DNA from: Candidatus Saccharimonadota bacterium
GTDB taxonomy: Bacteria; Patescibacteriota; Saccharimonadia; CAILAD01; BJGX01
DNA: 64,000 bases
Reading direction: 5' to 3'
Assembly: GCA_016191105.1 (NCBI GenBank)
Contig: JACPPH010000004.1
Location: forward strand, 65,230-129,229
Every line of letters starts with the position of its first letter. Positions within the stretch are counted from its first letter, which is position 1. Positions 1,224 through 40,045 of this stretch are shown piece after piece. A program made the translations under genes and the position numbers. The notes beneath the pieces were generated by a model. The model was not told where the DNA came from. It worked only from the letters and a program-made list of their open reading frames with translations, and ran no database searches.

Positions 1224-1383
1224 CCAAGCTTAAGAGCTAATTAGCCCTTGCCATAAGCATTTATTAGTGATACCATAAGGAATCTTTACCCAACTGCAGG
1301 ATCAGCAACGGAGCTGAGTAGGGGCAGAGGGTGAGGGTAGATGTACCCCTTTACATTCATCTACACCGAAGAGGAGGATTTCG

Positions 1384-1680
1384 GTGAAACGAGAGAGAGT
1401 ATTCAACGAAGCTGCACACGAACTGGTGTGCAGTGAGGCGGATCTTCGGATCCAAGAATGGCTCGATGGGAGGTCGCGGCGACAGCGACAAGTCGAACGT
1501 GACCCGGGCCTGAACGTACAGCTCACTGTCGAGGTGTACGGCGTGCTCAGGCGGAACTATCTGGTGGGCCAAGGCGTTGCGATCAGCGACACCCAGCTTG
1601 CTCGGTGCTTCCGACGCGCCAAGACACTCTCACACGAGACATTCGACCTCGTTCCTTCGACCGTGCTTGTGCACGCCTGA
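1384..1680 (+). CDS. Hypothetical protein, first ORF of high-GC island A
   Basis: GTG start 9 nt after a GAGGAGG Shine-Dalgarno. High-GC codon usage contrasts with the flanking genes. Confidence 0.4.
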   Translation: MKRERVFNEAAHELVCSEADLRIQEWLDGRSRRQRQVERDPGLNVQLTVEVYGVLRRNYLVGQGVAISDTQLARCFRRAKTLSHETFDLVPSTVLVHA

Positions 1681-1696
1681 GCGGGGGGAGGACGAC

Positions 1697-2263
1697 TTGA
1701 AGACGAGGATAGCAGACCTGAAGCAACTCGCCGTCGAGGCGACTGCCAAGGTCACATCATCACCCGCGGTCAGGAAGGCTCTTGAGGAGCAGTTGCTCGA
1801 GGAGCTGAAGCAGAGGATCGGACGTCGTTCGTTGACGACGGCTCGATCGGAAGCGGCGATCAAAGAGGTTCTCGATCAAGACCGCCTGCTCAGCATGGCG
1901 GCGTGGGCCTTCGTCCAGCTACCAGAACTGGAGCAGAGTCGGGAGGTGGCGCTCAAGGCGCTCAACCTGCTGAGTCAGCCCCACTTCGACGTGCTGCCCG
2001 AACAGCTCAACGACACGATTGAACTCGCCGACTTCTACACCCGCAACGCAACTCGAGTTGTCACGGCCGGTCCGAGGCAGGTGCTCGAAGGTGCGTCGAG
2101 GGCGCTCAAGATGGACGGGCGCTTCGTGGCGCGGCTACTCCAGTCAGGAGTACAGCTGCGTGACACAACGCCAACCTTCAGCAGAGCTCTGCGAACCCGG
2201 GAGGCGCTGCCAGGTGAGATCGGGAGCGTTCGAACGGTTCCGAGGGTGATGCAGCCCGCATAG
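1697..2263 (+). CDS. Hypothetical protein, second ORF of island A; probable TTG start coupled to the upstream stop
   Basis: The TGA of the upstream ORF is followed directly by GGGGGGAGGACGAC-TTG in frame with the 228-aa ORF. The ORF ends just before two consecutive perfect hairpins. Confidence 0.35.
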   Translation: MKTRIADLKQLAVEATAKVTSSPAVRKALEEQLLEELKQRIGRRSLTTARSEAAIKEVLDQDRLLSMAAWAFVQLPELEQSREVALKALNLLSQPHFDVLPEQLNDTIELADFYTRNATRVVTAGPRQVLEGASRALKMDGRFVARLLQSGVQLRDTTPTFSRALRTREALPGEIGSVRTVPRVMQPA

Positions 2264-2290
2264 GCTGAACTTCGCGGCAACAAAGGGGGC

Positions 2291-2355
2291 TCCGGGCCGG
2301 GGTGAGCGATCACTCCGGCCCGGACGGGCGACCACCAAACAGGTGGTCGTTTTCA
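2291..2355 (+). terminator. Tandem hairpins closing island A (tccgggccgg...ccggcccgga, then cgaccacc-aaaca-ggtggtcg-TTTTC)
   Basis: Perfect 10-bp and 8-bp stems; the second is followed by a T-run. Confidence 0.5.
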
Positions 2356-6453: not shown

Positions 6454-9237
6454 ATGTCCAAGCGCCCTAAATTTGTAATTTTCGATGGCCATGCCCTGGT
6501 GCATCGTGGCTATCACGCCATTCCGTATTTAACCACCAAAGATGGTACCCCCACCAACGCCGTGTTTGGCTTTGCTACTATGATGCTTTTGGCGCTGCGC
6601 GAGCTCAAGCCCGACTATGTGGCTGTAGCTTGGGATGCGCCAGGGCCCACATTCCGCCACAAACAGTTCAAAGACTACAAAGGCACCCGACAAAAGGCCG
6701 ACCAGGAGCTATACGACCAACTGCCGATTACCAAGGATCTAATTGAGGCCTTTAACATTCCGCTAATCGAGCAGGTTGGCTACGAGGCCGATGACATTAT
6801 TGGTAGCCTGGCCGAAAAGTACCGGGCGCAAGCCGATGTAGTGATTGTAACTGGTGACATGGATGAATTGCAGCTGGTGAGTGATCGCGTGAGTGTTTAT
6901 ACCATGCGCAAGGGCTTTACCGACACTGTGATTTTCGATCCCAAAATGGTGCATGAAAAATATGGTGTTACACCAGAAGAATTCGTGGTCTACAAAGCTC
7001 TCAAGGGTGATAGCAGCGACAACATTCCTGGTGTGGCCGGCATTGGCGATAAAACCGCCACCGAGCTAGTAGCCAAGTATCAATCACTCGATAACATATA
7101 CAAAAATCTCGACAATATTAGGCCAGCTGTAGTCAAAAAGCTCGAGGCCGGGCGGGAAAGCGCCTATTTGAGCCTAGATTTATCACGAATTGTGCGCGAT
7201 ATGAAGCTCGACTTTGATCTTAAGAGGGCGACAACTCACGACTTTGACCGCCAGAAGGTCTACGACCTATTCCAAAAGCTAGAGTTTAAGAGCTTGCTGG
7301 CTAAATTGCCGACACCGCCAGGTGGCAAGGGCTTGGTAGAAACCGAAACCAACAGCGAAAAGCTCGAGCGTTCACACTTGGTAAGTGCTAATTACAAGAT
7401 TGTGCAAACTGAGGCAGATTTAAAAAAATTAGTCGAGCTGCTTTCTAAAGCCAAAGTTATTTCGTTTGATACAGAGACCACCGATACCGATGTAATTAAG
7501 GCCGACTTGGTAGGCCTAAGCTTTGCGGTGCACGAGGGCGAGGCTTACTATGTGCCAGTTGGACATGTACAGACCAAGCCAGACGACATAGACTTTGTGC
7601 TTATGGCCCAAGATGCTCCAGTCGATCTGGCCGGTGGGCAATTGCCTTTGGAGCTGGTAATAAAAGCTCTCAAACCGATCTTGGAAGACCCCAAAATTGG
7701 CAAAGTTGGGCACAATATTAAGTACGACTACCAGATTATGAATCGAGCTGGCGTTAAGCTAACCCCGATTGTGTTCGACACTATGGTGGCGGCTTTTCTA
7801 ATCAACCCAATTGGGCGAGCTCAGAGCCTGACCGAGCTAGCCTATAGTGACCTAGGTATTCGCATGATCGAAATTACTGAGCTAATCGGCTCCAAGGGCA
7901 AAAACCAGCTCCACTTTGGCCAAACCGATGTCTCGCAGGCTGGCCAGTACGCTGCCGAAGACGCCGATATTGCGCTTCGTTTGTACCACAAGCTGCAAGC
8001 CGATCTTAAAAAGCTTGGTAAACTAACCGAGGTAGCTAAGACCTTCGAGTGGCCGCTTATTGAAGTGCTGGGCGATATGGAACTTACGGGCGTGACCCTC
8101 AACGTTAAGTTCTTGGCCAAATTTGCCAAACAAATTGATGGCGATATCGACAAATGCCAGAAAGCCATCTGGAAGTTGGCAGGGCAGCCGTTCAACATCA
8201 ATAGTCCTGGCCAACTTCAAGAGATTTTATTTAACACGCTCAAGATCGAAACCGCAGGACTCAAGAAGACCAAGACCGGCTATTCTACGGCAGCTAGCGA
8301 GCTCGAAAAACTGCGTGGCGTACACGATATTATTGAACATTTATTCGAGTATCGTGAACTAACTAAGCTTAAGAGCACCTATGTCGATGCCTTGCCTAAC
8401 GCTGTAGCCAAAGACGGCAAAATCCACACTAGCTACAACCAGACCATTGCCCAAACCGGCCGGCTTAATAGCACCAATCCCAACCTGCAAAATATCCCGG
8501 TTCGCACCGTCTTAGGTCGTGAAATCCGCAAGGCCTTTGTGGCCGATGAGGGCAATGTGTTGGTAAGTGCCGACTACAATCAGATAGAGCTGCGCTTGGC
8601 GGCCGCTCTAGCCGACGATAAGCCAATGATCAAGACCTTTCGTGAGCACCTGGATATTCACACCGCCACAGCAGCCGAGATGTTTGGTATTAAACCCGAA
8701 GAGGTAACTCCACAGCAACGTTATGGCGCCAAAACCATCAACTTTGGCGTGCTGTACGGCATGAGCCCGCACGGCTTGAGCGTGGCCGCCAAGCTAGATT
8801 ACGATCAAGCCAAGGAGTTTATAGACCGCTACTTTAACCTACGTAAAGGCGTGGCCGACTATATTGAAAGGATAAAGAAGTTGGCTCACAGACAACAGTT
8901 TACCGAAACCTATTTTGGTCGGCGCCGGCCCTGCCCCGATGTTAAGTCGAATAACTTTGTTATCCGCAGTGCCGCCGAGCGCGCAGCCGTGAACATGCCC
9001 TTGCAGGGTACGGCGGCCGATATGATTAAGCTGGCCATGATACGGATCCACAAAGTTTTACCCAACGGTGCCGGTATAATCTTACAGATTCACGACGAAT
9101 TGATAGTAGAATGCAAAAAATCTCAGGCCAAAGAGGTGGGCGAGATTATGAGTAAAGAAATGATAGGAGTGCACAAATTTGCGGTACCAATTGAGGTTGG
9201 GTTAAAGGTCGGCACCAGCTGGGGAGAGCTAGAGTGA
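6454..9237 (+). CDS. polA: DNA polymerase I (5'-3' exonuclease, 3'-5' exonuclease and polymerase domains)
   Basis: ~930 aa; FEN-like N-terminus, pol A motifs (DYSQIELR-like SADYNQIELR, KTINFGVLYG, QIHDELIVE). ATG lies 10 nt after a TATAAT. Confidence 0.93.
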   Translation: MSKRPKFVIFDGHALVHRGYHAIPYLTTKDGTPTNAVFGFATMMLLALRELKPDYVAVAWDAPGPTFRHKQFKDYKGTRQKADQELYDQLPITKDLIEAFNIPLIEQVGYEADDIIGSLAEKYRAQADVVIVTGDMDELQLVSDRVSVYTMRKGFTDTVIFDPKMVHEKYGVTPEEFVVYKALKGDSSDNIPGVAGIGDKTATELVAKYQSLDNIYKNLDNIRPAVVKKLEAGRESAYLSLDLSRIVRDMKLDFDLKRATTHDFDRQKVYDLFQKLEFKSLLAKLPTPPGGKGLVETETNSEKLERSHLVSANYKIVQTEADLKKLVELLSKAKVISFDTETTDTDVIKADLVGLSFAVHEGEAYYVPVGHVQTKPDDIDFVLMAQDAPVDLAGGQLPLELVIKALKPILEDPKIGKVGHNIKYDYQIMNRAGVKLTPIVFDTMVAAFLINPIGRAQSLTELAYSDLGIRMIEITELIGSKGKNQLHFGQTDVSQAGQYAAEDADIALRLYHKLQADLKKLGKLTEVAKTFEWPLIEVLGDMELTGVTLNVKFLAKFAKQIDGDIDKCQKAIWKLAGQPFNINSPGQLQEILFNTLKIETAGLKKTKTGYSTAASELEKLRGVHDIIEHLFEYRELTKLKSTYVDALPNAVAKDGKIHTSYNQTIAQTGRLNSTNPNLQNIPVRTVLGREIRKAFVADEGNVLVSADYNQIELRLAAALADDKPMIKTFREHLDIHTATAAEMFGIKPEEVTPQQRYGAKTINFGVLYGMSPHGLSVAAKLDYDQAKEFIDRYFNLRKGVADYIERIKKLAHRQQFTETYFGRRRPCPDVKSNNFVIRSAAERAAVNMPLQGTAADMIKLAMIRIHKVLPNGAGIILQIHDELIVECKKSQAKEVGEIMSKEMIGVHKFAVPIEVGLKVGTSWGELE

Positions 9238-9665
9238 ACAATGTAAACTTACGGGTTGCTGCCAAGGCTGTAATTGCATACAAAAACAAGGTATTGGTGG
9301 TGCGCGAGGGCGGCAAATATGAAGATGGCAACAATATTGGCCAGTATGGCCTGGTGGGCGGCAGAATAGAACCCGACGAGTCGTTTTACGATGCTCTGGA
9401 CCGTGAGATCTTAGAGGAGACGGGGCTTAAGGTTAAGACTACTAAGCCACTACAAGTAGGTGAGTGGTGGCCAGAGATCAAGGGCGTTAAAAACCACATT
9501 GTGGCTGTATTCATGATCTGTGAAGCCAAGACAGATAGGGTTGTGTTAAGCGATGAGCACGATGATTTTAAGTGGGTTAATCTGAACGAAATACAAAAGC
9601 TGCCGGTCATGGAACCAGATAGATCAGTTGCTATTGAGTTTTTAAGCTCTCTCCCAAAAACCTGA
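9234..9665 (+). CDS. NUDIX hydrolase
   Basis: NUDIX box GGRIEPDESFYDALDREILEETGL. The C-terminal codons LPKT* fall inside the shared island left-end motif. Confidence 0.8.
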   Translation: MNNVNLRVAAKAVIAYKNKVLVVREGGKYEDGNNIGQYGLVGGRIEPDESFYDALDREILEETGLKVKTTKPLQVGEWWPEIKGVKNHIVAVFMICEAKTDRVVLSDEHDDFKWVNLNEIQKLPVMEPDRSVAIEFLSSLPKT

Positions 9666-9730
9666 CATTGTCATCTCGAGCGTAGTCGAGAGATCTCGGA
9701 TCTTAGGGAGAGCGACAATCACGGAGGTTG
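9651..9730. repeat. Left-end junction motif of island B (ctcccaaaaacctRa ... gatcttNgggagaNcgacaaYc)
   Basis: Homologous to 13071-13116. Contains the inverted repeat ctctccc/gggagag. Confidence 0.55.
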
Positions 9731-9741
9731 GCGAAAGCACT

Positions 9742-9960
9742 CTACCGAGCCAGAGGTGGCTCTTCGTGAACACCTCCTTGAGGGTATGGTCGTGGTGAGG
9801 GTGGTTGGGCGGTGCAGCGGTCGAGCAGTACTACGAATACGCTGGCGATGAGGCCTAAGCATATGAGTAGCCAAAAGCCCTTCCATATGCCCCGAAGCAT
9901 GTCTCCAAGGCAGCCCATGTCAGTAGTGGCAGTTGGGGTCGTCGTAGACCACGTTGCCAT
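9742..9960 (-). CDS. Small membrane protein, island B
   Basis: 72 aa with a hydrophobic helix. Its ATG abuts the TAA of the upstream 57-aa ORF. Confidence 0.35.
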   Translation of the reverse strand: MATWSTTTPTATTDMGCLGDMLRGIWKGFWLLICLGLIASVFVVLLDRCTAQPPSPRPYPQGGVHEEPPLAR

Positions 9961-10134
9961 TTACGACTTGGCTAGAGGAGTAGTCGCCTTGCACTCCTTA
10001 ACGCGCTGACGAGCTCCAAGCATCGCCAGAACCATCAGTATTGCACCGATGGTTAAGAAGATGATGATCAAGATTCTGAGTCGCCTGCGATAGATCGCGT
10101 TTAACTCAGCTTCATTATGGGCATGCGCCTCCAT
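9961..10134 (-). CDS. 57-aa single-TM protein (MEAHAHNEAELNAIYRRRLRILIIIFLTIGAILMVLAMLGARQRVKE...), island B
   Basis: Not in the supplied ORF table because it is under 60 aa. GAAGGAG Shine-Dalgarno 7 nt upstream. Homologous to the 48-aa ORF at 13180-13326 (shared AI-RRRL plus an Ile-run TM). Confidence 0.35.
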   Translation of the reverse strand: MEAHAHNEAELNAIYRRRLRILIIIFLTIGAILMVLAMLGARQRVKECKATTPLAKS

Positions 10135-10185
10135 GAATCACTCCTTCTTGGTGATTGTCGGGTTGCGGGATATCGAACTGACATC

Positions 10186-10231
10186 CTCCCAAACAATTTA
10201 ACACGTTAAACTGTTTGGGAGAACGACAACC
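10186..10231. repeat. 17-bp inverted repeat (ctcccaaacaatttaac / gttaaactgtttgggag) followed by aacgacaacc; internal copy of the island junction motif
   Basis: Seen directly. The same tttgggagaacgacaacc string occurs at 13098-13116. Confidence 0.6.
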
Positions 10232-10274
10232 ATACTTTGCATTGCGCTCCCTCCGGGCAGGTGCCGGAATTGTG

Positions 10275-10823
10275 CTACATGCTTGGGCAACGCGGGGGAC
10301 AGCGACCGGGCTCACAACAGCCTTGGTCAGGGTCTTGACTCGCATCTTTGCCAGCAGGCCGGCAGTTGGTACTGTCGCAGGCTCCTGGCTCGGGCACTGA
10401 TCCTGGCGGGACCGTGCCCCGATCAGATACTCCAGGAACCGTGGCGGGTGGGATGCAGGGAGGCGTGGGGTCTTGGATGCAGTAGCGCGGTGGCACCACA
10501 TCGCAGTTGCCTCGTGCCTCGCATACCACCGCCGGGTTGTTGAACACGCTCGAGCATTTGCTACCAGGATCCAGCTTCCTTGGATCGCCCTCGGTCATAG
10601 GCGGGCAGCCTCGCACATCCGGGATGGTGCCACCGAAGTGGGGGGAAACCACTGTCGTCTTCGATGGCGGGCACGGGTCGTTGGGCCCGTAGAACACCAC
10701 ATTGCCGCTGACCTGATCGGGCGGGCAGATGGTCTTGGTAGGGGCGCTGTCGTTCGGACCGGCCTGGCCGGTGCAAGAGGCGGCAGCCAGGATGAACGGG
10801 ATGAGTATCGGTAGGCGCTTCAT
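10275..10823 (-). CDS. Cys/Pro-rich lipoprotein (signal MKRLPILIPFILAAASC)
   Basis: Lipobox-like LAAASC, about 20 Cys and many Pro. An AAAGGGG Shine-Dalgarno precedes the ATG at 10823. High GC. Confidence 0.5.
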   Translation of the reverse strand: MKRLPILIPFILAAASCTGQAGPNDSAPTKTICPPDQVSGNVVFYGPNDPCPPSKTTVVSPHFGGTIPDVRGCPPMTEGDPRKLDPGSKCSSVFNNPAVVCEARGNCDVVPPRYCIQDPTPPCIPPATVPGVSDRGTVPPGSVPEPGACDSTNCRPAGKDASQDPDQGCCEPGRCPPRCPSM

Positions 10824-10956
10824 GTGAGCACCCCTTTCGTGAGTAGTATGGTTGTCGATTGTAAAGGTAGAGGAATGCTCCTCCCCTAAACACTCATTCG
10901 CTGGAGAGCGAATTAAGTACTTGGGGGAGGCCCCATCCACCTTTCGGTGGAAAGGA

Positions 10957-11499
10957 CTACCCTGGAATTTGTGGTGGACCGACTACTTCGTCGTAGGTGT
11001 CGGGCGTGAGCCAGGGCTCCACGATGATGACGCCGCCGGTGTTGCGGTGTCGAGCCAAGTTCATGATCGCAACTTCCAGCTGTTCGGTATCACGCATGTA
11101 GCCGATCGAGCTGAACAGGCATGTCACCACATCGAAGAACGACGGGTTGCGGTCAAGGAAGCCCGGGGTACTCAAGCTGAAGGTGAGCATGTCGGCACAG
11201 ATCAAGTTGACCTCTGGCAGGCGCTTGCGAGCCATCTCGAGCTGTTGGGGAGACAGGTCAATGCCGACCACCTTGCTGAACCAGGCGGCGAGATGCTGCA
11301 GGTGCAGGCCAGTGCCGCAGGCCACGTCGAGCAAGCTCATGTCACGAGGGTGCTTGCCGGTCCTTTGCTCGGCGATTTCGAGCACTCGGCTGGCCTCGAC
11401 GCTGTAGTCCTTGAGGCTCTCATAGAGAGTGTCGTACCAGACCGCCGAGTGGGTGTAGGCAGTCATGTCTTCGGTTGTATCCATATTGGTGTTGGTCAT
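10957..11499 (-). CDS. Class I SAM-dependent methyltransferase
   Basis: Motif I LDVACGTGLH. An acidic loop and motif IV-like region follow. High GC. GGAG Shine-Dalgarno. Confidence 0.7.
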   Translation of the reverse strand: MTNTNMDTTEDMTAYTHSAVWYDTLYESLKDYSVEASRVLEIAEQRTGKHPRDMSLLDVACGTGLHLQHLAAWFSKVVGIDLSPQQLEMARKRLPEVNLICADMLTFSLSTPGFLDRNPSFFDVVTCLFSSIGYMRDTEQLEVAIMNLARHRNTGGVIIVEPWLTPDTYDEVVGPPQIPG

Positions 11500-11551
11500 G
11501 TCAAAACTCCAGGGATCGGGTTGCTAGCCTATGCCAGCAACGTGTAGCAAG

Positions 11552-11580
11552 ATATTATAATAAAAGCTATATAAAGTCAA
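11552..11580 (-). promoter_or_regulatory. Sigma70-type promoter for the leftward island B operon (TTGACT-N17-TAATAT), overlapping a divergent TTGACT on the plus strand
   Basis: Read on the minus strand. Homologous to the island C promoter (TTGACWTWMTATAGCTYTT). Confidence 0.45.
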
Positions 11581-11640
11581 TAGTCTTGACTGGTTCGTTG
11601 TACAGCTAAAAGTAAAGCCCATTTCAGGTATAATGTTGCT

Positions 11641-12522
11641 ATGCCAGAGCTACCAGAGGTCGAAACAGTTCGAACAGGATTACAGCAGTTCTTGGTGGGC
11701 CAGACCATCCAAGCGGTGGCTTTTGATTGGCTTAAAAGCTTCCCAAACGACAAAAACCAAGTTGATAAATTCGTAATAAAAGCTGAAATTACATCTGTAA
11801 AGCGCCGCGCCAAGGTGTTATTGCTCGATTTAAACACAGGCTACACACTCATGGTGCATCTCAAAATGACCGGCCAGATGGTGTATCGGCCCAAAGAGGG
11901 TGAGGGCTTTGGTGGTGGGCATCCGTCAGATAGCCTAATAAGTAAATTACCAGATAAATCTACCCGAGTAACTTTTACGCTAAACCGCGGCAAGTTGTTT
12001 TTTAACGACCAGCGTAAATTTGGCTGGATTAAACTAAAAAAGACCGCCGATCTAGTTAGTGACGAGTTTTTGAGCAAACTTGGCCCAGAACCACTCGAGG
12101 ATAGCTACACATTTGAACAGTTTAAGGCTGCAATACAAAGAAGGCAAAAAACCAGCATAAAAGCTGCCATTTTAGATCAGACAGTTCTGGCCGGGGTGGG
12201 TAATATTTATGCCGATGAGAGCCTATTTGCAGCCCGAATTCACCCAGCCACCCTGGTGAAAGATGTTAGCAGCATAAAGTTAAAGCGGCTCTACAATGCC
12301 ATTCGCGAAGTCATGAACTTAAGCATTCGCTTAGGTGGCAGTAGCGATCGCAATTATGTCGATGCTCAAGGAAAAAAGGGTAGTTACCTTAAATTCGCCA
12401 AGGTTTTCAGAAGAGATGGGCAAGAATGCCCGGAATGTGGGGGCAAGATTGTAAAAATTCGTGTGGCTGGCCGCGGCACGCACATTTGCCCCAAATGCCA
12501 GAAATTGCCGAGGAAAAGGTGA
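11641..12522 (+). CDS. mutM: Formamidopyrimidine-DNA glycosylase
   Basis: N-terminal MPELPEVE, H2TH region, C-terminal zinc finger CPECGGK...CPKCQ. Confidence 0.92.
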   Translation: MPELPEVETVRTGLQQFLVGQTIQAVAFDWLKSFPNDKNQVDKFVIKAEITSVKRRAKVLLLDLNTGYTLMVHLKMTGQMVYRPKEGEGFGGGHPSDSLISKLPDKSTRVTFTLNRGKLFFNDQRKFGWIKLKKTADLVSDEFLSKLGPEPLEDSYTFEQFKAAIQRRQKTSIKAAILDQTVLAGVGNIYADESLFAARIHPATLVKDVSSIKLKRLYNAIREVMNLSIRLGGSSDRNYVDAQGKKGSYLKFAKVFRRDGQECPECGGKIVKIRVAGRGTHICPKCQKLPRKR

Positions 12523-13085
12523 GGTATTACTTCGGTGGCGCCAACGGCAGTGGTAAATCTACGTTAGTGTCGAGAATAGTAAAGCAAAAACAAGAGTTCA
12601 TACCTTTTAAAGGCGCCACCGAACTCATGGAGGCCTTGGGCATACCTGGTGATTACGACAAGCTTAGGGCTATGGATCACTCAGTAACTACCGCCGCGTT
12701 TGGAAAGCTGGTTCAGGAGCAATCAAAAAAACACCGAAACCTAATAATCGACGCACACTACATGAACCTTAAACACGGTAAGTTTTATCCGGTTTGGGGC
12801 GACTGGCTTAGCTCGGTTGATGCTCTGGTGTTGGTAGAAGCACCTGCCAGCGCTATATTGGAGCGAATAGAACTCGATCCAAGTAAAGACAGGGCTCTGT
12901 TCCCGGCCGGGGCTACAGAAAAGCAAAAACTGAGCCTACTAAAAGCTTTGATCAGCACCAGCAAAGATGTGTTTTTGGACTGCGCAAACCAATACAACAA
13001 AAAGAGCTTGATTATTGAAAATACCGACCCAACTAAAGCTCTAGATAAGTTTATTAAATTTGATTTTAATCTCCCAAAAACCTAA
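12495..13085 (+). CDS. P-loop NTPase (Walker A GGANGSGKST), function unclear
   Basis: The start is placed at MPEIAEE, so it overlaps the fpg 3' end. The C-terminal codons NLPKT* lie in the shared island left-end motif. Confidence 0.55.
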   Translation: MPEIAEEKVRYYFGGANGSGKSTLVSRIVKQKQEFIPFKGATELMEALGIPGDYDKLRAMDHSVTTAAFGKLVQEQSKKHRNLIIDAHYMNLKHGKFYPVWGDWLSSVDALVLVEAPASAILERIELDPSKDRALFPAGATEKQKLSLLKALISTSKDVFLDCANQYNKKSLIIENTDPTKALDKFIKFDFNLPKT

Positions 13086-13116
13086 ATTATTTTAGATCTT
13101 TGGGAGAACGACAACC
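13071..13116. repeat. Left-end junction motif of island C (ctcccaaaaacctaa ... gatctttgggagaacgacaacc)
   Basis: Homologous to 9651-9730. Inverted repeat ctcccaaa/tttgggag. Confidence 0.55.
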
Positions 13117-13179
13117 TTCGTCGAAACACCCCCGGCGACGCACTATGGAAGTGCGTATCTTATGGTGCCGGTATGTTGA

Positions 13180-13326
13180 CTATCCGGTGACCCGCTTCTT
13201 CGCGAGTTTGATGACGAACTCGAGAAGCAGGGCGCCGGAGAGGGCGAGGCCGAACGTGGAGACGATGATGATTATGTACTCATCGCTCTCATTCAGCCTC
13301 CGGCGAATCGCACGAACGGGGTTCAT
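13180..13326 (-). CDS. 48-aa single-TM protein (MNPVRAIRRRLNESDEYIIIIVSTFGLALSGALLLEFVIKLAKKRVTG), island C
   Basis: Under 60 aa. A GTGAGGTG Shine-Dalgarno overlaps the stop of the upstream ORF. Homologous to the 9961-10134 ORF. Confidence 0.35.
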   Translation of the reverse strand: MNPVRAIRRRLNESDEYIIIIVSTFGLALSGALLLEFVIKLAKKRVTG

Positions 13327-13335
13327 CGAATCACC

Positions 13336-13641
13336 TCACTTGTGGTAGTTGCGGTGAGGGTTGACAGCAGCGATGAACGGGACGGCGACTGCGGCCAAGA
13401 GCGCCACAATCAGGCCCATCACACGGTCACGTACCTCGAACTGCTGATCGAGTGCCACGTAGGCACCGAGCACGATCGAAGCGACAGAGAGAACGAGAAG
13501 GCCGTAGCACCAGATAATGCGATTGCCAACTTCATCTGTGTCCATCGTGTCGAGGATTCGTGCGCGAATCCTCTGGCTGGTGGCGTCGTCGAGCTCTGGT
13601 CCTCCGCTGCGGAAATCCCGCAGGGGATCCAAATCATCCAT
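13336..13641 (-). CDS. 101-aa membrane protein, island C
   Basis: Two hydrophobic segments. GGAGG Shine-Dalgarno. High GC. Confidence 0.4.
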   Translation of the reverse strand: MDDLDPLRDFRSGGPELDDATSQRIRARILDTMDTDEVGNRIIWCYGLLVLSVASIVLGAYVALDQQFEVRDRVMGLIVALLAAVAVPFIAAVNPHRNYHK

Positions 13642-13729
13642 GGGTTGACCTCCAGGGTCGTGGAATGGTTGTCATTTGGTTGTCGAAGGTCGCTCTGGGC
13701 GGTTGCCCAAAGGACCAGCGAACCTGAAC

Positions 13730-13758
13730 ATAGTACCATAAGAGCTATAGTATGTCAA
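13730..13758 (-). promoter_or_regulatory. Sigma70-type promoter for island C (TTGACA-N17-TACTAT)
   Basis: Read on the minus strand. Shares tatagct spacer sequence with the island B promoter. Confidence 0.45.
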
Positions 13759-18455: not shown

Positions 18456-18845
18456 GGCCGTTGCGGCGATCAGCAAGCAAGATAACAAAATACACTCTTG
18501 TTGCGAGAATTTGGTGTCTACCAAACCGCACAGCAACAGGAAAGTATTTTGCTGTAGAGCGCTGCTTTATCGTAAGCACAGGCCAAAGACTTTTGCTATC
18601 TTTTGGTCTTTCAAAAGATAGTTGCCCGAAGGGTAAAACCCTTTGAATCTTGCGCTGTCCGCACCGGACTTCTTTGTAGCGGAAAGTTGCCAAAGCTTCT
18701 GGCATGGGCTCAATCAAGTAGTATTCAGATAGATTTAACTTCGGGTTCTGCGGAACTCTCCGCTGGCACGCGGATCAAACAGTCCTCGCTTGCAGCACTT
18801 CGAGCTGCGCAAAGCTACGTCCAGCTGTTCGAATGCCAGACACGG
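18456..18845 (+). ncRNA. Copy 1 of a repeated structured non-coding element (5' domain plus 3' domain)
   Basis: Conserved against 22580-22968 and 37478-37675. Hairpin gctatcttttg-N6-caaaagatag and hairpin aaggg-taaaa-ccctt. Strand uncertain. Confidence 0.45.
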
Positions 18846-18893: not shown

Positions 18894-19042
18894 CTACAGA
18901 TTCAATCTTCGCTGTTCGCTAGTCAGCGAAAGCGAATTGTTGAACGCTCCTTGCTATTGCCTGCATTCTTGCGGGCAATCTGATGAGAAATTTTGAAATC
19001 TAAATAGTCAGCCCACCACAACTTCGCCCTTAGGAGGCAATC

Positions 19043-19456
19043 ATGGGTATCAACTATGCTGTCAGCGATCTGGGTGATGCCGACGGGTTGGCCGGAGAAC
19101 CGATCGATCAGCGCGCACTCGATCTAGCCGAGGCGCTCGAGATGTTCGTCGGCCTCACACATGATGCGGGTGCGAACTTCACGGTTCAGATCACCCTCGT
19201 CGACGAGACCAAGGTGGTCGTCTACTACACCCACTACCTGGGTTTGGTACCGTCGTCCAACCCGGAGAGGCTGTACAACAGCAGCAACTACGGGTTCTTC
19301 TACGCGTTCGAGAAGGATCCCGAGGATCATCTCGACACCTTCGACCAGTTCCTGTTCACCGTGGGGTGCATCGTCAAGGCGGCGCCCTGGATCTGCACCG
19401 AGCGGGTGCTGCGCCGCATCGTCGCCGGCGACGATGCTGGCCAACCAGCAGCATGA
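19043..19456 (+). CDS. Hypothetical acidic protein F1 (island F)
   Basis: AGGAGG Shine-Dalgarno 6 nt upstream. High GC. Confidence 0.4.
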   Translation: MGINYAVSDLGDADGLAGEPIDQRALDLAEALEMFVGLTHDAGANFTVQITLVDETKVVVYYTHYLGLVPSSNPERLYNSSNYGFFYAFEKDPEDHLDTFDQFLFTVGCIVKAAPWICTERVLRRIVAGDDAGQPAA

Positions 19457-19570
19457 TCATCGTTGTGGTGGAATGTGGGGGCCCTTCGGGGCCCCTGCCA
19501 CCACCAGGCTGACTATTTAGATATTCTCGTTAGCTTGCCCGTAAGGAACTGCAAACGATTGGAGATAATC

Positions 19571-19717
19571 ATGGATAAGAATGCGCAGATCATCAAGCTG
19601 GGGGTCTACTCCGAGCTCAACCTGACCTACGCCACCCGCAACGTCTGGTTCGACGACATCCTCATCGGCCATGTGCCGGCGGAGGATCTCGTGGAGCCCG
19701 AAGAGATCAGCAGCTGA
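19571..19717 (+). CDS. 48-aa hypothetical protein F2
   Basis: GGAG Shine-Dalgarno. Trimmed from the 84-aa table ORF to the internal ATG that has an RBS. Confidence 0.3.
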   Translation: MDKNAQIIKLGVYSELNLTYATRNVWFDDILIGHVPAEDLVEPEEISS

Positions 19718-19795
19718 ACCCCCAACGCAGGCAACAACGAAGCAAGGAGCTCCCGAGAACCGTTCTCCGCCAGCCGGCGGAACGCGGTGCTCGGG

Positions 19796-19849
19796 CCAGC
19801 TCCCGAGTTCTGATCCGCTGTCCAACGGAATTCAGGATTCAGGAGCTGG
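19796..19849 (+). repeat. 54-nt imperfect palindrome (ccagctcc...ggagctgg), copy 1, downstream of F2
   Basis: Near-identical copy at 20341-20394 downstream of F3. Confidence 0.6.
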
Positions 19850-19887
19850 AGTGTTACTCTAGCAAAAGTTCCTTGCAGTATCCGTAA

Positions 19888-19908
19888 CTTGTAGCAGTAT
19901 GCTACAAG
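19888..19908. promoter_or_regulatory. Perfect palindrome cttgtagca-gta-tgctacaag (operator-like) overlapping an extended -10 TGCTACAAG upstream of F3
   Basis: Seen directly. 9-bp arms. Confidence 0.45.
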
Positions 19909-19929
19909 TTCAATCGATTGGAGTGACTC

Positions 19930-20295
19930 ATGGAAGTGAAACACGAGAGAGGCGTCGTCGTGGCGTTCTATCCCGGGAGCGATTCCGGTGTTCTCGGCGT
20001 CTACGACGACAGGCTCATGCTGACCGACGAGGAGATCCTGTTCCATCTCGGTGATGGAACGATGATCAAGATCATCGATGACGACGCTGTCTTCGGTGAG
20101 CCGTTCGGCGATGACCAGAGCCCAGATGCGTCGTTGTTGCGGTGCCCCCGGGTTGGAGAGCTCGTCGTCTTCGAGAGGACCGAGCAGGACGGCGAGAACG
20201 TGAAGGCACGGCCATGGACGTACGGCTTCCTCTACGACAACTTCACGGGGGACATGAGGCCACCCTCCGGGGTGAGCAAGCGGCAGCCTGCCTGA
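19930..20295 (+). CDS. Hypothetical acidic protein F3
   Basis: GGAG Shine-Dalgarno. High GC. Asp/Glu-rich. Confidence 0.4.
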   Translation: MEVKHERGVVVAFYPGSDSGVLGVYDDRLMLTDEEILFHLGDGTMIKIIDDDAVFGEPFGDDQSPDASLLRCPRVGELVVFERTEQDGENVKARPWTYGFLYDNFTGDMRPPSGVSKRQPA

Positions 20296-20340
20296 AGCCC
20301 AACCCCAACAAGCAAGGAGCAACGGGCCGACTAGTTCGGC

Positions 20341-20394
20341 CCAGCTCCCGAGTTCTGATCCGCTATCCAGCGGAATTCAGGATTCAGGAGCTGG
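20341..20394 (+). repeat. 54-nt imperfect palindrome, copy 2
   Basis: See 19796-19849. Confidence 0.6.
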
Positions 20395-20494
20395 AACGCT
20401 TTAGTTCGAGCAAATCGCTCTTTGTTTTTGCAATACCTGGCCACGAGGTTCGTGGCAAGCAACCGACGGAAACAGACTACGAAAGGAAACCGTC

Positions 20495-21106
20495 ATGACA
20501 ACACACCTCTCCGAAGAGGCCCGCAAGATGATCGAGGACTTCACCACCGCCACCGTGAGCGCGTGGATGGATGCTGGCATCATCAAGACCAACTCCTGGG
20601 GCGTATGGCTCGAGGCCGACGACCCCAACGGCGACTTCGAGAACGCCGTCGATCACCGGTTCGGCTTCGACCACCCCGAGGGCAAGCACGACGCCGAGTG
20701 GTACATCGCCAACGCCAAGGGCAAGTGCGAAGCCTGCTTCGCCACCGGCAAGGACAGCCACGAGGCTGTTCGAACCTGGCAAGGCATGCTCAACGGCGTG
20801 GACGGCATCTTCCCTTGGGGCGGCGCGATCATCGACACCGACTATGGAATCTGCGTCGGCGTCAGCGGCTTCCGCGAGGACGAAGATCTGATGGTGGCCC
20901 GTGCCATCCGCAACTTCATCGTCATGCTGTTGGATCGCAAGGGGCAGAACTACATCGACGAGACCCGCGCACGCGGCAAGGACGATGCCCCCGATCCCAG
21001 CGACAGGTTCACCAGGGCCTCGAAGCCCGACGACTACGAGGACTTCGGCGAGGGTCCGATCGGCCGGGAGTTTTCGAAGACCACCCATCCGAACCTGACC
21101 ACCTAG
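20495..21106 (+). CDS. Hypothetical acidic protein F4 (203 aa)
   Basis: AAAGGAAA Shine-Dalgarno. High GC. Followed by the perfect hairpin gagcatccgcc-tca-ggcggatgctc (21129-21153). Confidence 0.45.
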   Translation: MTTHLSEEARKMIEDFTTATVSAWMDAGIIKTNSWGVWLEADDPNGDFENAVDHRFGFDHPEGKHDAEWYIANAKGKCEACFATGKDSHEAVRTWQGMLNGVDGIFPWGGAIIDTDYGICVGVSGFREDEDLMVARAIRNFIVMLLDRKGQNYIDETRARGKDDAPDPSDRFTRASKPDDYEDFGEGPIGREFSKTTHPNLTT

Positions 21107-21236
21107 TCGACAAGCAATGCAAAGAGCCGAGCATCCGCCTCAGGCGGATGCTCACAGCTCTCAAGCTAATCAGTTATGATTGGTTTAAGAGCTGAATCCA
21201 TAAGTCATTCTGAACTTGTTGCAGAATCTCAAAATT

Positions 21237-21530
21237 ATGAGCAAACAATATTACGTATACCTGCTGACTAATAAGACAAATCAAGTTTTGTATACTGGTG
21301 TAACTAGTGATTTAGTCAGACGAGTTAATGAACACAAAAATCATCTCGTTGAGGGGTACTCTGATAAATACAATGTAGATAAACTTGTATACTTTGAAGT
21401 GCTTGACGATCCCGAAAATGCAATTAAAAGGGAGAAGCAAATAAAAAATTGGCATAGAGACTGGAAGCTAAGCCAAATAAAGAAAAGTAATCCCAATATG
21501 AAGGACTTGTATGAGAAGATCCTGAAATAA
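21237..21530 (+). CDS. GIY-YIG nuclease family protein
   Basis: YVYLL...LYTGVT...RRVNEHK motifs. 8 nt upstream of truB. Confidence 0.8.
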   Translation: MSKQYYVYLLTNKTNQVLYTGVTSDLVRRVNEHKNHLVEGYSDKYNVDKLVYFEVLDDPENAIKREKQIKNWHRDWKLSQIKKSNPNMKDLYEKILK

Positions 21531-22199: not shown

Positions 22200-22557
22200 T
22201 CCTAGTCATTCCCGCGTAGGCGGGAATCTAAACAATTTCTTGGTACAAGTCATTCCATTCGGGATTAGAAGATTCTATTTTGCGAATCTTCCAAGATCGA
22301 TTCCACTTCTTCATCTGGTTCTCTCTGACAATTGCCTCGTTGATATCGTCATATTGAGCGAACCAAACGAGCTTAGTAACGTTGTACTTTTTGGTGAACC
22401 CAGCTACTAAGTGATTTTTATGCTCGTAAACTCGTTTAGCCAGATTACTGGTAACACCAATATATAGAGTTCCATTGCGATCACTTGCCAATATATAAAC
22501 ATACCCAACTTTCATGAGCAGATATTATACTGGATTCCCGCCTATAAGCGGGAATGA
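22200..22557. mobile_element. Hairpin-flanked mini-element carrying a GIY-YIG gene
   Basis: Near-identical palindromic hairpins (stem ATTCCCGC/GCGGGAAT) at 22203-22224 and 22531-22555 bracket the gene. Confidence 0.4.
22228..22515 (-). CDS. GIY-YIG nuclease family protein (paralog of 21237-21530, ~55% identical)
   Basis: GYVYIL...LYIGVT...KRVYEHK. Confidence 0.8.
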   Translation of the reverse strand: MKVGYVYILASDRNGTLYIGVTSNLAKRVYEHKNHLVAGFTKKYNVTKLVWFAQYDDINEAIVRENQMKKWNRSWKIRKIESSNPEWNDLYQEIV

Positions 22558-22579: not shown

Positions 22580-22968
22580 GGCCGTTGCTACGATCAGCAA
22601 GCGAAGCCGCCAAGCAACGCTCCTGATTGCGAGAATTCGCTGGCTAGCGAACCGCACAGCAACAGGAAGTTGCGACTGGCTAAGTACTGCTAGATCGTAA
22701 GCACAGGCCAAACGGTTTTGCTATCTTTTGCCAAGACAAAAGATAGTTGCCCGAAGGGTAAAAACCCTTCAAACCTATGGCTTTAAGCAGCCGGCACTTC
22801 TTTGAGACCCAAAGAAGCAAAGCCTCCGACATGGGCTCACACCTGGTGGCTGCTTGCTCGCTCGCAAGCTGAAGCTGCGGAACTCGTCCGCCAGCTGGCG
22901 ACTCAGACAGTCCTCGCTTGCAGCGTTTCGTGCTTAGCATGCTGTGTCCAGCTGTTCGAATGTCGGCA
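22580..22968 (+). ncRNA. Copy 2 of the repeated structured non-coding element
   Basis: Aligns with copies 1 and 3. Carries the ttcgc/gcgaa hairpin where the other copies have tttgg/ccaaa (a compensatory change). Confidence 0.45.
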
Positions 22969-29276: not shown

Positions 29277-29476
29277 AGCATGATAGTTTTGGTTGAGAAT
29301 AATAGGTGTTCTCTAGCCAATAATTAGCCGGCGCGGCTTGACAAGCCATATTAGTTATGGTAAGTTCCAATTGACAGGAAGGCCAAAATCTAGCCTTCGT
29401 GCCGTAGCTTGCAGGTTGATAGAAGGGAGTTAGCACTGACGAGATAGCGACAAAAGCGAAACGAAAGGACGATCCC

Positions 29477-39918: not shown

Positions 39919-40045
39919 AATTATACCAAACCTGGTGATACAATAAAATTATGGAAATAAGATTGGCCGACAGCTCAGACACAAAACAACTAGGTGAAAT
40001 GCGTTGGGATTTTCAGATCGAAGAGCCAACTGAAACTGTTTCTAG

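What the first reader, a model, noticed from the sequence alone, without database searches (positions are those of the whole stretch)
9651..13758. Islands B and C share both end motifs, a promoter and a small RRRL membrane-protein family; two host genes end in identical LPKT* because of the insert
The NUDIX gene (stop at 9665) and the P-loop gene (stop at 13085) both end with the same 12 nt, ctcccaaaaacc, encoding LPKT plus a stop. Both are followed by gatcttNgggagaNcgacaaYc, which forms an inverted repeat with the ctccc arm. A third internal copy lies at 10186-10231 (ctcccaaacaatttaac / gttaaactgtttgggag + aacgacaacc). At the other end, both islands carry a leftward promoter of the form TTGACWTWMTATAGCTYTT...TAMTAT. 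Both also have the same start context, ccctggag(g/t)t...ATG. Each island encodes a homologous very small single-TM protein: 57 aa at 9961-10134 and 48 aa at 13180-13326, sharing AI(Y)RRRL plus an Ile-run helix. Each of these is coupled to a second small membrane protein. This is what two insertions of related mobile cassettes look like, if the element brings its own terminal sequence and re-terminates the 3' end of the target gene.
Basis: seen in the sequence. Interest (0 to 1): 0.8.

Follow-up and report, generated by a model that had tools for sequence, protein, structure and literature searches.

The report
Bracketed mRNA cassettes in Saccharibacteria
The two "islands" are clade-specific gene cassettes for tiny membrane proteins and lipoproteins whose messenger RNAs appear to be closed by pairing of a short box in the 5' leader with its complement just before a strong 3' hairpin; two neighbouring genes share the ending LPKT only because both read a few codons into that hairpin from the other strand.

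Summary
The sequence observation is real. GGGAGANCGACAA occurs three times in 64 kb, only in these islands. The 12-nt tail and the promoter pair are exact.

The window is a Saccharibacteria genome. Three related genomes (L021, L162, L163/L164) carry the same elements in the same two gaps, polA-fpg and fpg-holA. This gives 11 cassettes in total.

Each cassette reads, on the window's minus strand: a 5'-UTR box YGACAAYC, then one to five orphan small-membrane or lipoprotein genes, then the reverse complement of the box, then 2 nt, then a hairpin with invariant G-U pairs. Most have their own strong promoter.

Box pairs are complementary over 8-13 bp in 11/11 cassettes. They covary between cassette types, and one orthologue shows a compensatory A-U to G-C change. 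Folding gives the long-range helix a probability near 1 in 10/11 transcripts.

The LPKT* codons are the distal hairpin arm read on the opposite strand. In relatives that arm is non-coding and abuts polA or fpg, so the hairpin probably predates NUDIX and the P-loop gene there.

I found no target duplication, no recombinase in the locus and no copies elsewhere, so recent mobile insertion is not supported. The p57/p48 homology is not significant.

Best reading: mRNA end-pairing (hbs/icaR-like) expression cassettes. The main rival is a DNA inversion switch.

The parts
11552..11580 (-). Promoter of the island B array. It reads TTGACT, 17 nt, TAATAT, and is followed by the leader ...ccctggagttttgacATG.
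   Evidence: The orthologous promoter and leader are present in L021.
10957..11499 (-). Class I SAM methyltransferase gene, truncated to 180 aa against 256-265 aa in relatives. It is the first gene of array B and is not bracketed by boxes.
   Evidence: Pfam Methyltransf_25 at E = 2e-15. Homologues at 60-63% identity in L021, L162, L163 and L160. GC3 is 0.78.
10845..10857 (-). 5' box of cassette B2. The sense strand reads CGACAACCAUACU. It lies 22 nt upstream of the lipoprotein start codon.
   Evidence: The box is identical in L021. It is CGGCAACCAUAC in L162, with a matching change in the 3' box.
10275..10823 (-). Cys-rich lipoprotein gene (signal peptide plus lipobox AASC). It evolves fast.
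   Evidence: Homologous to the L021 lipoprotein at E = 1e-12 and to the L162 lipoprotein at 51%. No Pfam or NCBIfam family.
10224..10236 (-). 3' box of cassette B2. The sense strand reads AGUAUGGUUGUCG, a 13-nt perfect complement of the 5' box 628 nt away.
   Evidence: Helix probability is about 1.0 (0.72 at the terminal pair) in the folded 695-nt transcript.
10186..10221 (-). Internal 36-nt hairpin (B-int), 2 nt after the 3' box.
   Evidence: The sense-strand RNA folds at -28.8 kcal/mol against -17.4 for the opposite strand. Covariance model: 70 bits on the sense strand against 36 bits on the antisense strand.
10151..10160 (-). 5' box of cassette B1. The sense strand reads CGACAAUCAC, just upstream of the SD AAGGAG of p57.
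9742..10134 (-). Two coupled small membrane-protein genes: p57 (9961-10134) and p72 (9742-9960).
   Evidence: p72 is homologous to L021 p49 (E = 1e-7) and to an L162 ORF (50%).
9713..9722 (-). 3' box of cassette B1. The sense strand reads GUGAUUGUCG, a 10-nt perfect complement of the 5' box.
   Evidence: Helix probability 0.93-1.0.
9651..9710 (-). Terminal 60-nt hairpin of array B. Its distal arm, read on the + strand, supplies the last four codons and the stop of NUDIX (CTC CCA AAA ACC TGA).
   Evidence: The hairpin is 60 nt in L162 and L163 too, with different inner stems.
9234..9665 (+). NUDIX gene. Its start overlaps the polA stop (GTGA) and its tail SSLPKT is encoded by the hairpin arm.
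   Evidence: Pfam NUDIX at E = 1e-18. Orthologue C-termini differ. The gene is absent between polA and the hairpin in L021, L162 and L163.
13730..13758 (-). Promoter of island C. It reads TTGACA, 17 nt, TACTAT, with a TG extension.
   Evidence: The same promoter type occurs in L162-C, L163-c1 and L163-c2.
13667..13685 (-). Tandem 5' boxes of cassette C. The sense strand reads CGACAACC-AAA-UGACAACC. The distal box is predicted to pair with the 5'-terminal GGUUCG. The proximal box is predicted to pair with the 3' box.
13180..13641 (-). Two small membrane-protein genes: p101 (13336-13641) and p48 (13180-13326).
   Evidence: p101 has a 55% homologue at the same place in L162 and is otherwise an orphan.
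13109..13116 (-). 3' box of cassette C. The sense strand reads GGUUGUCG, inside an ultra-conserved 3' UTR (CCGGGGGUGUUUCGACGAAGGUUGUCGUU).
   Evidence: The last 62 nt are 95-97% identical to L162 and L163, whereas housekeeping genes are 67-71% identical at the nucleotide level.
13071..13106 (-). Terminal 36-nt hairpin of island C. Its distal arm, read on the + strand, supplies the last four codons and the stop of the P-loop gene (CTC CCA AAA ACC TAA).
   Evidence: -26.9 kcal/mol on the sense strand against -19.4 on the opposite strand. Invariant G-U and U-G pairs. Covariance model: 80 bits against 37 bits.
12519..13085 (+). Orphan P-loop (AAA_17) gene. Its start overlaps the fpg stop (GTGA) and its tail NLPKT is encoded by the hairpin arm.
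   Evidence: Pfam. Only a self-hit in 5.8 billion proteins. Absent from all related loci.

Best explanation
The region holds three members (B2, B1 and C) of a clade-specific family of expression cassettes. They are transcribed from the minus strand and lie in the two gaps that flank fpg in a lineage of Saccharibacteria.

**What is shown.**
- Each cassette has a short box (YGACAAYC plus a cassette-specific extension) in its 5' leader.
- It carries one to five orphan genes for tiny membrane proteins or lipoproteins.
- The exact reverse complement of the box follows the last stop codon. A strong hairpin follows always 2 nt later. The hairpin is much more stable on the gene's sense strand because of conserved G-U pairs.

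**What is inferred.**
- In the mRNA the two boxes pair over hundreds of nucleotides. The helix stacks on the 3' hairpin, so the transcript, or each unit of a polycistronic transcript, is closed into a panhandle.
- The most likely role is control of RNase access, that is mRNA stability and/or processing into units, as in the B. subtilis hbs mRNA. The hairpin would also mark the 3' end and insulate the convergent housekeeping genes.
- Near-consensus promoters and strong Shine-Dalgarno sites suggest high expression.

**The LPKT* coincidence** is a side effect. NUDIX and the P-loop gene, both lineage-specific and wedged between a conserved gene and the hairpin, read 12 nt into paralogous copies of the distal hairpin arm in the same frame. 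That frame then meets a stop codon.
For: - **Anatomy.** The architecture is repeated in 11 cassettes from four genomes.
- **Complementarity.** The 5' and 3' boxes match over 8-13 bp in 11/11 cassettes, across 381-1276 nt.
- **Covariation.** Three box types (CGACAACC, CGACAACCAUACU, CGACAAUCACG) each have a matched partner. L162-B2 carries a compensatory CGGCAACC / GGUUGCCG change. On alignment A3, 81.8% of cells are paired against 71.0% when shuffled. The covariation score is 0.293 against 0.129, and 0/500 shuffles reach it. Slid registers reach at most 60.6% paired (+3; 22-49% in the others) and a covariation score of at most 0.138.
- **Folding.** Whole-transcript partition-function folding of 472-1343 nt gives the box helix a probability near 1.0 in 10/11 cassettes. 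In the eleventh, the MFE and centroid of the full island C mRNA contain it.
- **Strand asymmetry of the hairpins.** Energies are -26.9 against -19.4 and -28.8 against -17.4 kcal/mol. G-U and U-G pairs are invariant. The covariance model scores 80 bits on the sense strand against 37 on the antisense strand.
- **RNA-compatible variation.** The tandem 5' boxes in type C differ only by C/U changes, which keep pairing with G. The distal box pairs with the conserved 5'-terminal GGUUCG.
- **Conservation.** The 62-nt 3' element is 95-97% identical between genomes whose polA, fpg and holA are 67-71% identical at the nucleotide level.
- **Origin of LPKT.** The arm is non-coding in relatives and NUDIX orthologues end differently.
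- **Precedent.** 5'/3'-UTR helices are known in hbs (14 bp, modulates RNase Y cleavage; PMC5737220) and in icaR and RNAIII (PMC7821165).
Against: - There are no transcript data. Transcript ends, the pairing and any effect on stability are all inferred.
- Thermodynamic prediction of long-range pairs is unreliable on its own.
- Only four genomes carry the element, the cassettes are paralogous or orthologous, and I anchored the box alignment by hand. The covariation statistics may therefore be inflated.
- G-T wobbles would also stabilise a single-stranded DNA hairpin. Identical inverted repeats, and a change on both sides, could also be maintained by DNA inversion or gene conversion.
- The stems are conserved in sequence as well as in structure. 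This points to a sequence-specific partner that I cannot name.
- The boxes do not overlap the SD, so no direct translational mechanism is evident.
- The methyltransferase gene shares the promoter type but has no boxes.
Confidence: 0.55

Rival explanations
1. Mobile cassettes. B and C are two insertions of a related mobile element. The element carries its own end sequences and replaced the 3' ends of the genes it landed in.
For: - The islands share left and right ends.
- GC3 is raised in most island genes (0.69-0.80; p57/p72 0.55-0.59) against 0.47-0.57 in host genes.
- Gene content and cassette number vary between genomes. A lipoprotein cassette lies in the fpg-holA gap in L163 but in the polA-fpg gap elsewhere.
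- Many relatives have empty sites, with fpg directly adjacent to holA.
Against: - No target duplication. The two island ends are not inverted repeats of each other.
- No transposase or integrase in the locus.
- No copy outside these two gaps anywhere in the 64-kb window or in about 1.3 Mb of loci including it.
- The 77 metagenome matches and one viral match are chance-like, and there is no phage or plasmid relative.
- The cassettes are present at the same sites in genomes 38-80% identical in core proteins, and the MTase is diverged to a similar degree.
- The hairpin arm abuts polA or fpg in relatives, so NUDIX and the P-loop gene look like the newcomers.
Confidence: 0.12
2. DNA inversion switch. 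The box pairs are inverted repeats recognised by a site-specific recombinase. It flips the gene segment relative to its fixed promoter and gives phase-variable expression of surface lipoproteins and membrane proteins. Mycoplasma surface-lipoprotein inversion switches work this way (author's recollection; not checked in a paper here).
For: - Perfect inverted repeats of 8-13 bp flank the coding segments, and the promoters lie outside them.
- The repeats are kept identical within a cassette, including a change on both sides in L162-B2. Recombination could produce this.
- The cargo is made of variable surface proteins of an episymbiont.
Against: - All 11 cassettes are in the promoter-proximal orientation in six assemblies: window, L001, L021, L162, L163 and L164.
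- No recombinase gene lies in the locus.
- Repeat length and the direction of its extension vary.
- The 3' repeat is always exactly 2 nt from a strand-asymmetric hairpin, while the 5' repeat has no such neighbour.
- The tandem C/U-variant 5' boxes and the local CGACGA mimic only make sense at the RNA level.
Confidence: 0.13
3. The hairpins are merely shared (bidirectional) transcription terminators between convergent genes. The box complementarity is incidental conservation of a protein-binding motif.
For: - Every hairpin lies at a cassette 3' end. The terminal ones sit exactly between convergent genes.
- Genomes of this group are compact.
Against: - No U-tract follows the stems on either strand, and none is called by the terminator scan.
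- An incidental motif would not covary with a partner 400-1300 nt away.
- The internal hairpin at 10186-10221 lies between co-oriented genes.
Confidence: 0.1
4. Integron-like array. The hairpins are attC-type single-strand recombination sites, each closing a gene cassette (a cluster of attC sites without an integrase).
For: - The cassettes are co-oriented and each ends in an imperfect palindrome.
- The basal stem is conserved and the terminal part varies from 4 to about 78 nt.
- The strands are asymmetric.
Against: - The attC core RYYYAAC...GTTRRRY is absent, apart from a fortuitous match in one inner stem.
- No integron integrase lies in the locus.
- Cassette boundaries are inverted repeats, not direct repeats.
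- The more stable strand is the coding strand.
- The elements are confined to two gaps in one clade.
Confidence: 0.04

Closest known systems
B. subtilis hbs mRNA 5'/3'-UTR interaction (Braun, Durand and Condon 2017, PMC5737220)
   Same: A short perfect helix (14 bp there, 8-13 bp here) forms between the 5' leader and the 3' UTR of the same strongly expressed mRNA with a strong SD. Both organisms are presumed to have a Gram-positive-type RNase set (not checked here). In hbs the helix modulates RNase Y cleavage in the leader. This is the role proposed here.
   Different: hbs is a single gene, and the interaction is not conserved in close relatives (PMC7821165). Here a whole family of paralogous cassettes uses one box family with covarying extensions. 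The 3' box is fixed 2 nt from a sequence-conserved hairpin. No experimental data exist.
S. aureus icaR 5'-3' UTR pairing (Ruiz de los Mozos 2013, reviewed in PMC7821165)
   Same: [quoted passage not shown]
   Different: In icaR the 3' UCCCC motif masks the SD and represses translation. Here the boxes lie upstream of the SD and do not cover it.
hok/sok-type type I toxin mRNAs (5' tac - 3' fbi fold-back); from my own knowledge, not tested here
   Same: Small hydrophobic membrane peptides are encoded by highly structured mRNAs whose 5' and 3' ends pair next to a terminal hairpin.
   Different: No antisense RNA gene was identified. The same bracket also surrounds 180-230-aa lipoprotein genes and multi-gene units, so it is not toxin-specific.
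Processing stems that bracket rRNAs (RNase III); from my own knowledge
   Same: Complementary sequences flank a long transcript segment inside a polycistronic RNA. This fits array B of the window, which seems to have one promoter for three units.
   Different: Those stems are longer (20 bp or more) and bracket stable RNAs, not mRNAs. RNase III cleavage here is untested.
Phase-variable inversion switches (fim, and Mycoplasma surface-lipoprotein loci as recalled by the author; no paper was consulted for either)
   Same: Short inverted repeats are associated with variable surface lipoprotein genes in a reduced-genome symbiont.
   Different: Those repeats usually flank the promoter. A recombinase is encoded nearby and both orientations are observed. 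None of these is seen here.

Membership tests
mRNAs with a functional 5'/3'-UTR long-range helix (hbs / icaR kind) | Complementary segments in the leader and the trailer of the same transcription unit | tested here: met
   8-13 bp of perfect complementarity in 11/11 cassettes. The helix is predicted with probability near 1 in 10/11 folded transcripts, and in the MFE and centroid for island C.
mRNAs with a functional 5'/3'-UTR long-range helix (hbs / icaR kind) | Pairing maintained by selection (compensatory change) | tested here: met
   A-U changes to G-C in L162-B2. Eight of 15 pairs show changes on both sides. The covariation score is 0.293 against 0.129 when shuffled, with 0/500 shuffles reaching it. 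Caveat: few, related sequences.
mRNAs with a functional 5'/3'-UTR long-range helix (hbs / icaR kind) | Both segments lie inside the mapped transcript | tested here: inconclusive
   Promoter-like sites lie upstream of the 5' boxes of cassette C and of the relatives' cassettes. The hairpin follows the 3' box. No transcript ends are available.
mRNAs with a functional 5'/3'-UTR long-range helix (hbs / icaR kind) | The helix changes RNase cleavage, stability or translation | not testable with these tools
   This needs mutagenesis, half-life measurements or structure probing.
Transposon / MITE-type mobile insertion | Terminal inverted repeats at the two ends of the inserted unit, plus a target-site duplication | tested here: not met
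   The island ends (TCTCCCAAAAACC... and ...GTCAA) are not inverted repeats of each other. No direct repeat flanks either the islands or the box pairs.
Transposon / MITE-type mobile insertion | Dispersed copies at unrelated sites | tested here: not met
   Copies occur only in the two gaps flanking fpg, within about 1.3 Mb searched by regex and covariance model (the 64-kb window plus related loci). Metagenome and viral matches are chance-like. The rest of the genome was not available.
Integron cassette / attC | attC core sites RYYYAAC ... GTTRRRY and an IntI integrase | tested here: not met
   The core is absent from 10 of 11 hairpins. No recombinase appears among the genes called in the locus.
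Invertible DNA switch | Inverted repeats flanking the invertible segment | tested here: met
Invertible DNA switch | Both orientations observed, and a recombinase gene | tested here: not met
   Only one orientation is seen in six assemblies. No recombinase lies in the locus. Read-level data and the rest of the genome could not be examined.
Intrinsic (Rho-independent) terminator | A G+C-rich stem followed by a U-tract | tested here: not met
   The scan calls none of the three hairpins. The tails are AUUAAAAUC, GAUGUCAG and AGAGCUUAA.
REP/BIME-like repetitive extragenic palindromes | Many copies spread over intergenic regions of the genome | tested here: not met
   Three copies in 64 kb, all in the islands.
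Type I toxin-antitoxin (hok-like) | A small hydrophobic toxin with a cis-encoded antisense RNA | tested here: inconclusive
   Small transmembrane ORFs are present. No antisense gene was identified, and Rfam found nothing. The same bracket also surrounds lipoprotein genes.

The most novel reading that the evidence does not exclude
A lineage of Saccharibacteria has a modular system of surface-protein expression cassettes. A dedicated, sequence-conserved 3' hairpin and covarying 5'/3' 'cyclisation' boxes close each mRNA unit, formally like the cyclisation sequences next to the 3' stem-loop of flavivirus genomes. An unknown sequence-specific factor reads these elements. The same conserved flanks let cassettes be duplicated and swapped between the two gaps beside fpg. 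This would be the first family-wide, covariation-supported mRNA end-pairing system in bacteria, and the first cis-regulatory RNA architecture described for CPR bacteria.
Probability: 0.35. Interest if true: 0.7.

Novelty: new variant of a known kind. Interest (0 to 1): 0.55.

Why it matters
Only a handful of bacterial mRNAs are known to pair their 5' and 3' UTRs (hbs, icaR, RNAIII). Each is an isolated case and is poorly conserved between species.

Here one box-and-hairpin design is reused by at least 11 cassettes in four genomes, with compensatory changes. That offers a natural covariation series for studying how mRNA end-pairing controls stability or processing.

The system lies in Saccharibacteria, ultra-small episymbionts for which I am not aware of any described post-transcriptional control (own knowledge; the paper searches here turned up nothing relevant). 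The cargo consists of orphan lipoproteins and tiny membrane proteins that evolve faster than core genes. These are plausible host-interaction surface components.

The result also gives a cautionary example. Two unrelated genes share a C-terminal peptide only because both ORFs run into paralogous non-coding hairpins on the other strand.

Tried and rejected
- **Motif scans of public collections.** TTWGGGAGARCGACAAYC gave 1 hit in viral contigs, inside a phage structural gene. It gave 77 hits in JGI metagenome contigs. None had the hairpin, the extension or a partner box, and several lay in coding sequence. I treated all as chance.
- **Homologue searches.** The P-loop protein and p101 returned only themselves. 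An exhaustive HMMER search for p101 gave 4 weak hits. The P-loop C-terminus could therefore not be compared with orthologues.
- **Family scans.** Pfam, NCBIfam and PADLOC scans of the cassette proteins found no family. My recollection that the p101 N-terminus resembles an actinobacterial family was not borne out.
- **Rfam.** No family matched in the region or in the whole window. There are no tRNAs that could serve as integration sites.
- **Phage and plasmid DNA similarity.** The only match was a 55-nt methyltransferase motif in Streptomyces plasmids.
- **p57/p48 and p72/p101 homology.** Not significant.
- **Explanations rejected.** The attC, REP and intrinsic-terminator readings failed their defining features (see the membership tests).
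- **Methyltransferase homologues in other contexts.** L160, L161, L165 and L167-L170 lack the boxes and hairpins.
- **Literature.** Searches for Saccharibacteria islands or phase-variable lipoproteins found nothing relevant.

Full report
**1. Check of the observation**

The region was read on both strands.

- CTCCCAAAAACC is exact at 9651-9662 and 13071-13082. It is followed by TGA and TAA. The NUDIX ORF (9234-9665, Pfam NUDIX E = 1e-18) and a P-loop ORF (12519-13085, AAA_17) therefore both end ...LPKT*.
- GGGAGANCGACAA occurs at 9706, 10217 and 13102 and nowhere else in 64 kb, against 0.22 expected.
- The promoter pattern matches only 11562-11580(-) and 13740-13758(-), against 0.13 expected. 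Both are TTGAC[AT]-17-TA[AC]TAT sites.
- The claimed homology of p57 and p48 is not significant, with E = 1.8 and 0.2.

**2. Context**

An Fpg-based scan of one genome per species returned 80 loci. Nearly all are Saccharibacteria or Patescibacteria, with a best identity of 68%.

The order polA - [variable] - fpg - [variable] - holA is conserved. Many genomes have fpg directly adjacent to holA, and two have polA adjacent to fpg. Among those 80 loci, only L021 shares the window's higher-GC filling of these gaps.

Most island genes have GC3 of 0.69-0.80 (p57 and p72 are host-like at 0.55-0.59), against 0.47-0.57 for host genes, ribosomal proteins included. The P-loop gene has no homologue in any related locus or in a database of 5.8 billion proteins.

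**3. Relatives that carry the same elements**

- L021 has a homologous array between polA and fpg: a full-length MTase, a lipoprotein and five small membrane genes. It also has the same non-coding motifs, GGGAGAGCGACAATCACG and TTTGGGAGAACGACAACCATAC.
- Through the MTase I retrieved closer relatives: L162 (Logan) and L163/L164 (ENA). Their PolA is 75-81% identical to the window's and their Fpg 70-81%. They carry three cassettes each in the same two gaps.
- MTase homologues in other contexts lack the elements.

**4.

On the sense (window minus) strand every cassette reads as follows:

- a 5' leader containing a box YGACAAYC...;
- an SD;
- one to five genes;
- the reverse complement of the box;
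- 2 nt;
- a hairpin, CUCCCAAAG...(variable)...GGUUUUUGGGAG.

Window coordinates:

| Cassette | 5' box | 3' box | Hairpin |
|---|---|---|---|
| B2 | 10845-10857 | 10224-10236 | 10186-10221 |
| B1 | 10151-10160 | 9713-9722 | 9651-9710 |
| C | 13667-13685 (tandem) | 13109-13116 | 13071-13106 |

In 11 of 11 cassettes the two boxes are perfectly complementary over 8-13 bp, across 381-1276 nt. There are three box types: CGACAACC, CGACAACCAUACU and CGACAAUCACG(AC). Each type has its matched partner.

The orthologous B2 cassette of L162 has CGGCAACC paired with GGUUGCCG, a compensatory A-U to G-C change.

On a box alignment, 81.8% of cells pair against 71.0% after shuffling. Eight of 15 pairs have changes on both sides. 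The covariation score is 0.293 against 0.129, with 0/500 shuffles reaching it. Slid registers reach at most 60.6% paired (+3; 22-49% in the others) and a covariation score of at most 0.138.

**5. Evidence for a single-strand (RNA) function on the sense strand**

- The hairpins fold far better as sense RNA: -26.9 against -19.4, -28.8 against -17.4, and -29.7 against -26.6 kcal/mol. This is because of G-U pairs that are invariant across genomes.
- A covariance model scores 66-80 bits on the sense strand and 25-38 bits on the antisense strand for the 36-nt type.
- The 60-nt terminal hairpins of W, L162 and L163 keep their length and basal stem but have three different inner stems.
- Whole-transcript partition-function folding gives the box helix a probability near 1.0 in 10 of 11 cassettes. 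For island C, the MFE and centroid of the promoter-to-hairpin RNA contain it, with z = -8.
- In type C leaders the boxes are tandem and differ only by C/U changes. The distal one pairs with a conserved 5'-terminal GGUUCG around a covarying hairpin.
- The 3' element is 95-97% identical over 62 nt between genomes whose polA, fpg and holA are 67-71% identical at the nucleotide level. The cassette genes themselves are only 57-67% identical.
- No hairpin has a U-tract.
- Rfam has no match.

**6. The LPKT coincidence**

- In L162 and L163 the arm CTCCCAAAAACC starts 1 nt after the polA stop.
- In L163 the fpg stop is followed by TTT CGT AAT CTC CCA AAA ACC TAA. This is the same frame as the tail of the window's P-loop gene.
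- In L021 the arm is intergenic.
- NUDIX orthologues at 44-49% identity end in unrelated sequences.

The four codons are therefore hairpin sequence read on the opposite strand. The arm closes all three frames within about 28 nt.

Both NUDIX and the P-loop gene start with GTG overlapping the TGA of the upstream gene. Both are absent from that position in L021, L162 and L163. By parsimony they were wedged in after the hairpin existed. For NUDIX this is less secure, because NUDIX genes occur elsewhere in this gap in other Saccharibacteria.

**7. Mobility**

Evidence against recent insertion:

- no target duplication, no terminal inverted repeats of the islands, and no recombinase in the locus;
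- no copies elsewhere in the window or related loci;
- only chance-like matches in metagenome and viral collections;
- no phage or plasmid relatives.

Cassette number and content do vary. L163 has a lipoprotein cassette with type C flanks in the fpg-holA gap and a second promoter-hairpin unit. The conserved flanks may therefore support duplication or exchange by recombination. This is inference.

**8. Interpretation**

The best-supported reading is a family of self-contained expression cassettes. Their mRNAs are closed by 5'/3' box pairing stacked on a 3' hairpin. Functionally they are closest to the hbs 5'/3'-UTR helix that modulates RNase Y cleavage (PMC5737220) and to the icaR and RNAIII cases (PMC7821165).

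The pairing itself is inferred from complementarity, covariation and folding. Its effect (stability, processing or insulation) is untested.

The main rival is a DNA inversion switch. It explains the identical inverted repeats. It does not explain the fixed 2-nt spacing to a strand-asymmetric hairpin, the tandem C/U-variant boxes, or the uniform orientation in six assemblies.

**9. Verdict**

What is there is a new variant of a known kind of mechanism. It is confined, so far, to one Saccharibacteria clade.

Noticed in passing
window 18501-18811, 22590-22939, 37489-37682; L162:6562-6840: A separate repeat family contains the palindrome CTATCTTTTG..CAAAAGATAG. A related copy of about 270 nt is inserted between fpg and the island C hairpin in L162. 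It looks like a MITE-type element of this clade. Small GIY-YIG-looking ORFs (21216-21530 +, 22228-22515 -) lie beside the copy at 22590-22939; the domain assignment is from memory and was not tested.
   Followed up: partly
window 43976-44190 and 45957-46171: A 215-nt direct repeat (96% identity) brackets a low-GC (0.32-0.37) segment of about 1.8 kb. A high-GC patch follows at 46.0-46.8 kb.
   Followed up: no
window 29191-29277, 40045-40131, 28594-28626: An 87-nt repeat (93% identity) carries the palindrome TCTAAGGGTACGACCCTTAGA. A third inverted copy of the palindrome is also present.
   Followed up: no
window 1300-2300 and 19000-21200: Further high-GC3 islands (GC3 0.72-0.87) of hypothetical genes. 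One has an internal 60-nt repeat (19791/20336). They lack the box and hairpin elements.
   Followed up: partly
window 10957-11499 (-): The island's methyltransferase is truncated to 180 aa, against 256-265 aa in L021, L162, L163 and L160. A deletion makes the ORF read into what is the 3' UTR in relatives. The same deletion may have removed the lipoprotein cassette's own promoter.
   Followed up: partly
L162:6836-7894: Fpg of L162 is 352 aa. It carries an insertion of about 59 aa after residue 84, relative to the 293-aa protein of the window.
   Followed up: no
L021 (CAVPRT010000011.1): The contig is labelled 'uncultured Acidimicrobiales' but carries the Saccharibacteria polA-fpg-holA arrangement at 61-68% identity to the window. 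It is probably mis-binned.
   Followed up: no
L160:5443-5482: The same promoter and leader start (TTGACA-N17-TAATAT-GTCCAGGTTCGCG) precede a 97-aa gene beside an MTase homologue. The context is not syntenic, and boxes and hairpin are absent. The promoter and leader module is therefore wider than the box/hairpin module.
   Followed up: no
window 9234-9237 and 12519-12522: Both lineage-specific genes (NUDIX and P-loop) start with GTG inside a GTGA overlap with the stop of the preceding conserved gene (polA and fpg). Both junctions of both genes are therefore built in the same way.
   Followed up: partly
window 1-64000: No tRNA gene and no Rfam family at gathering threshold were found in the whole 64-kb window.
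   Followed up: yes
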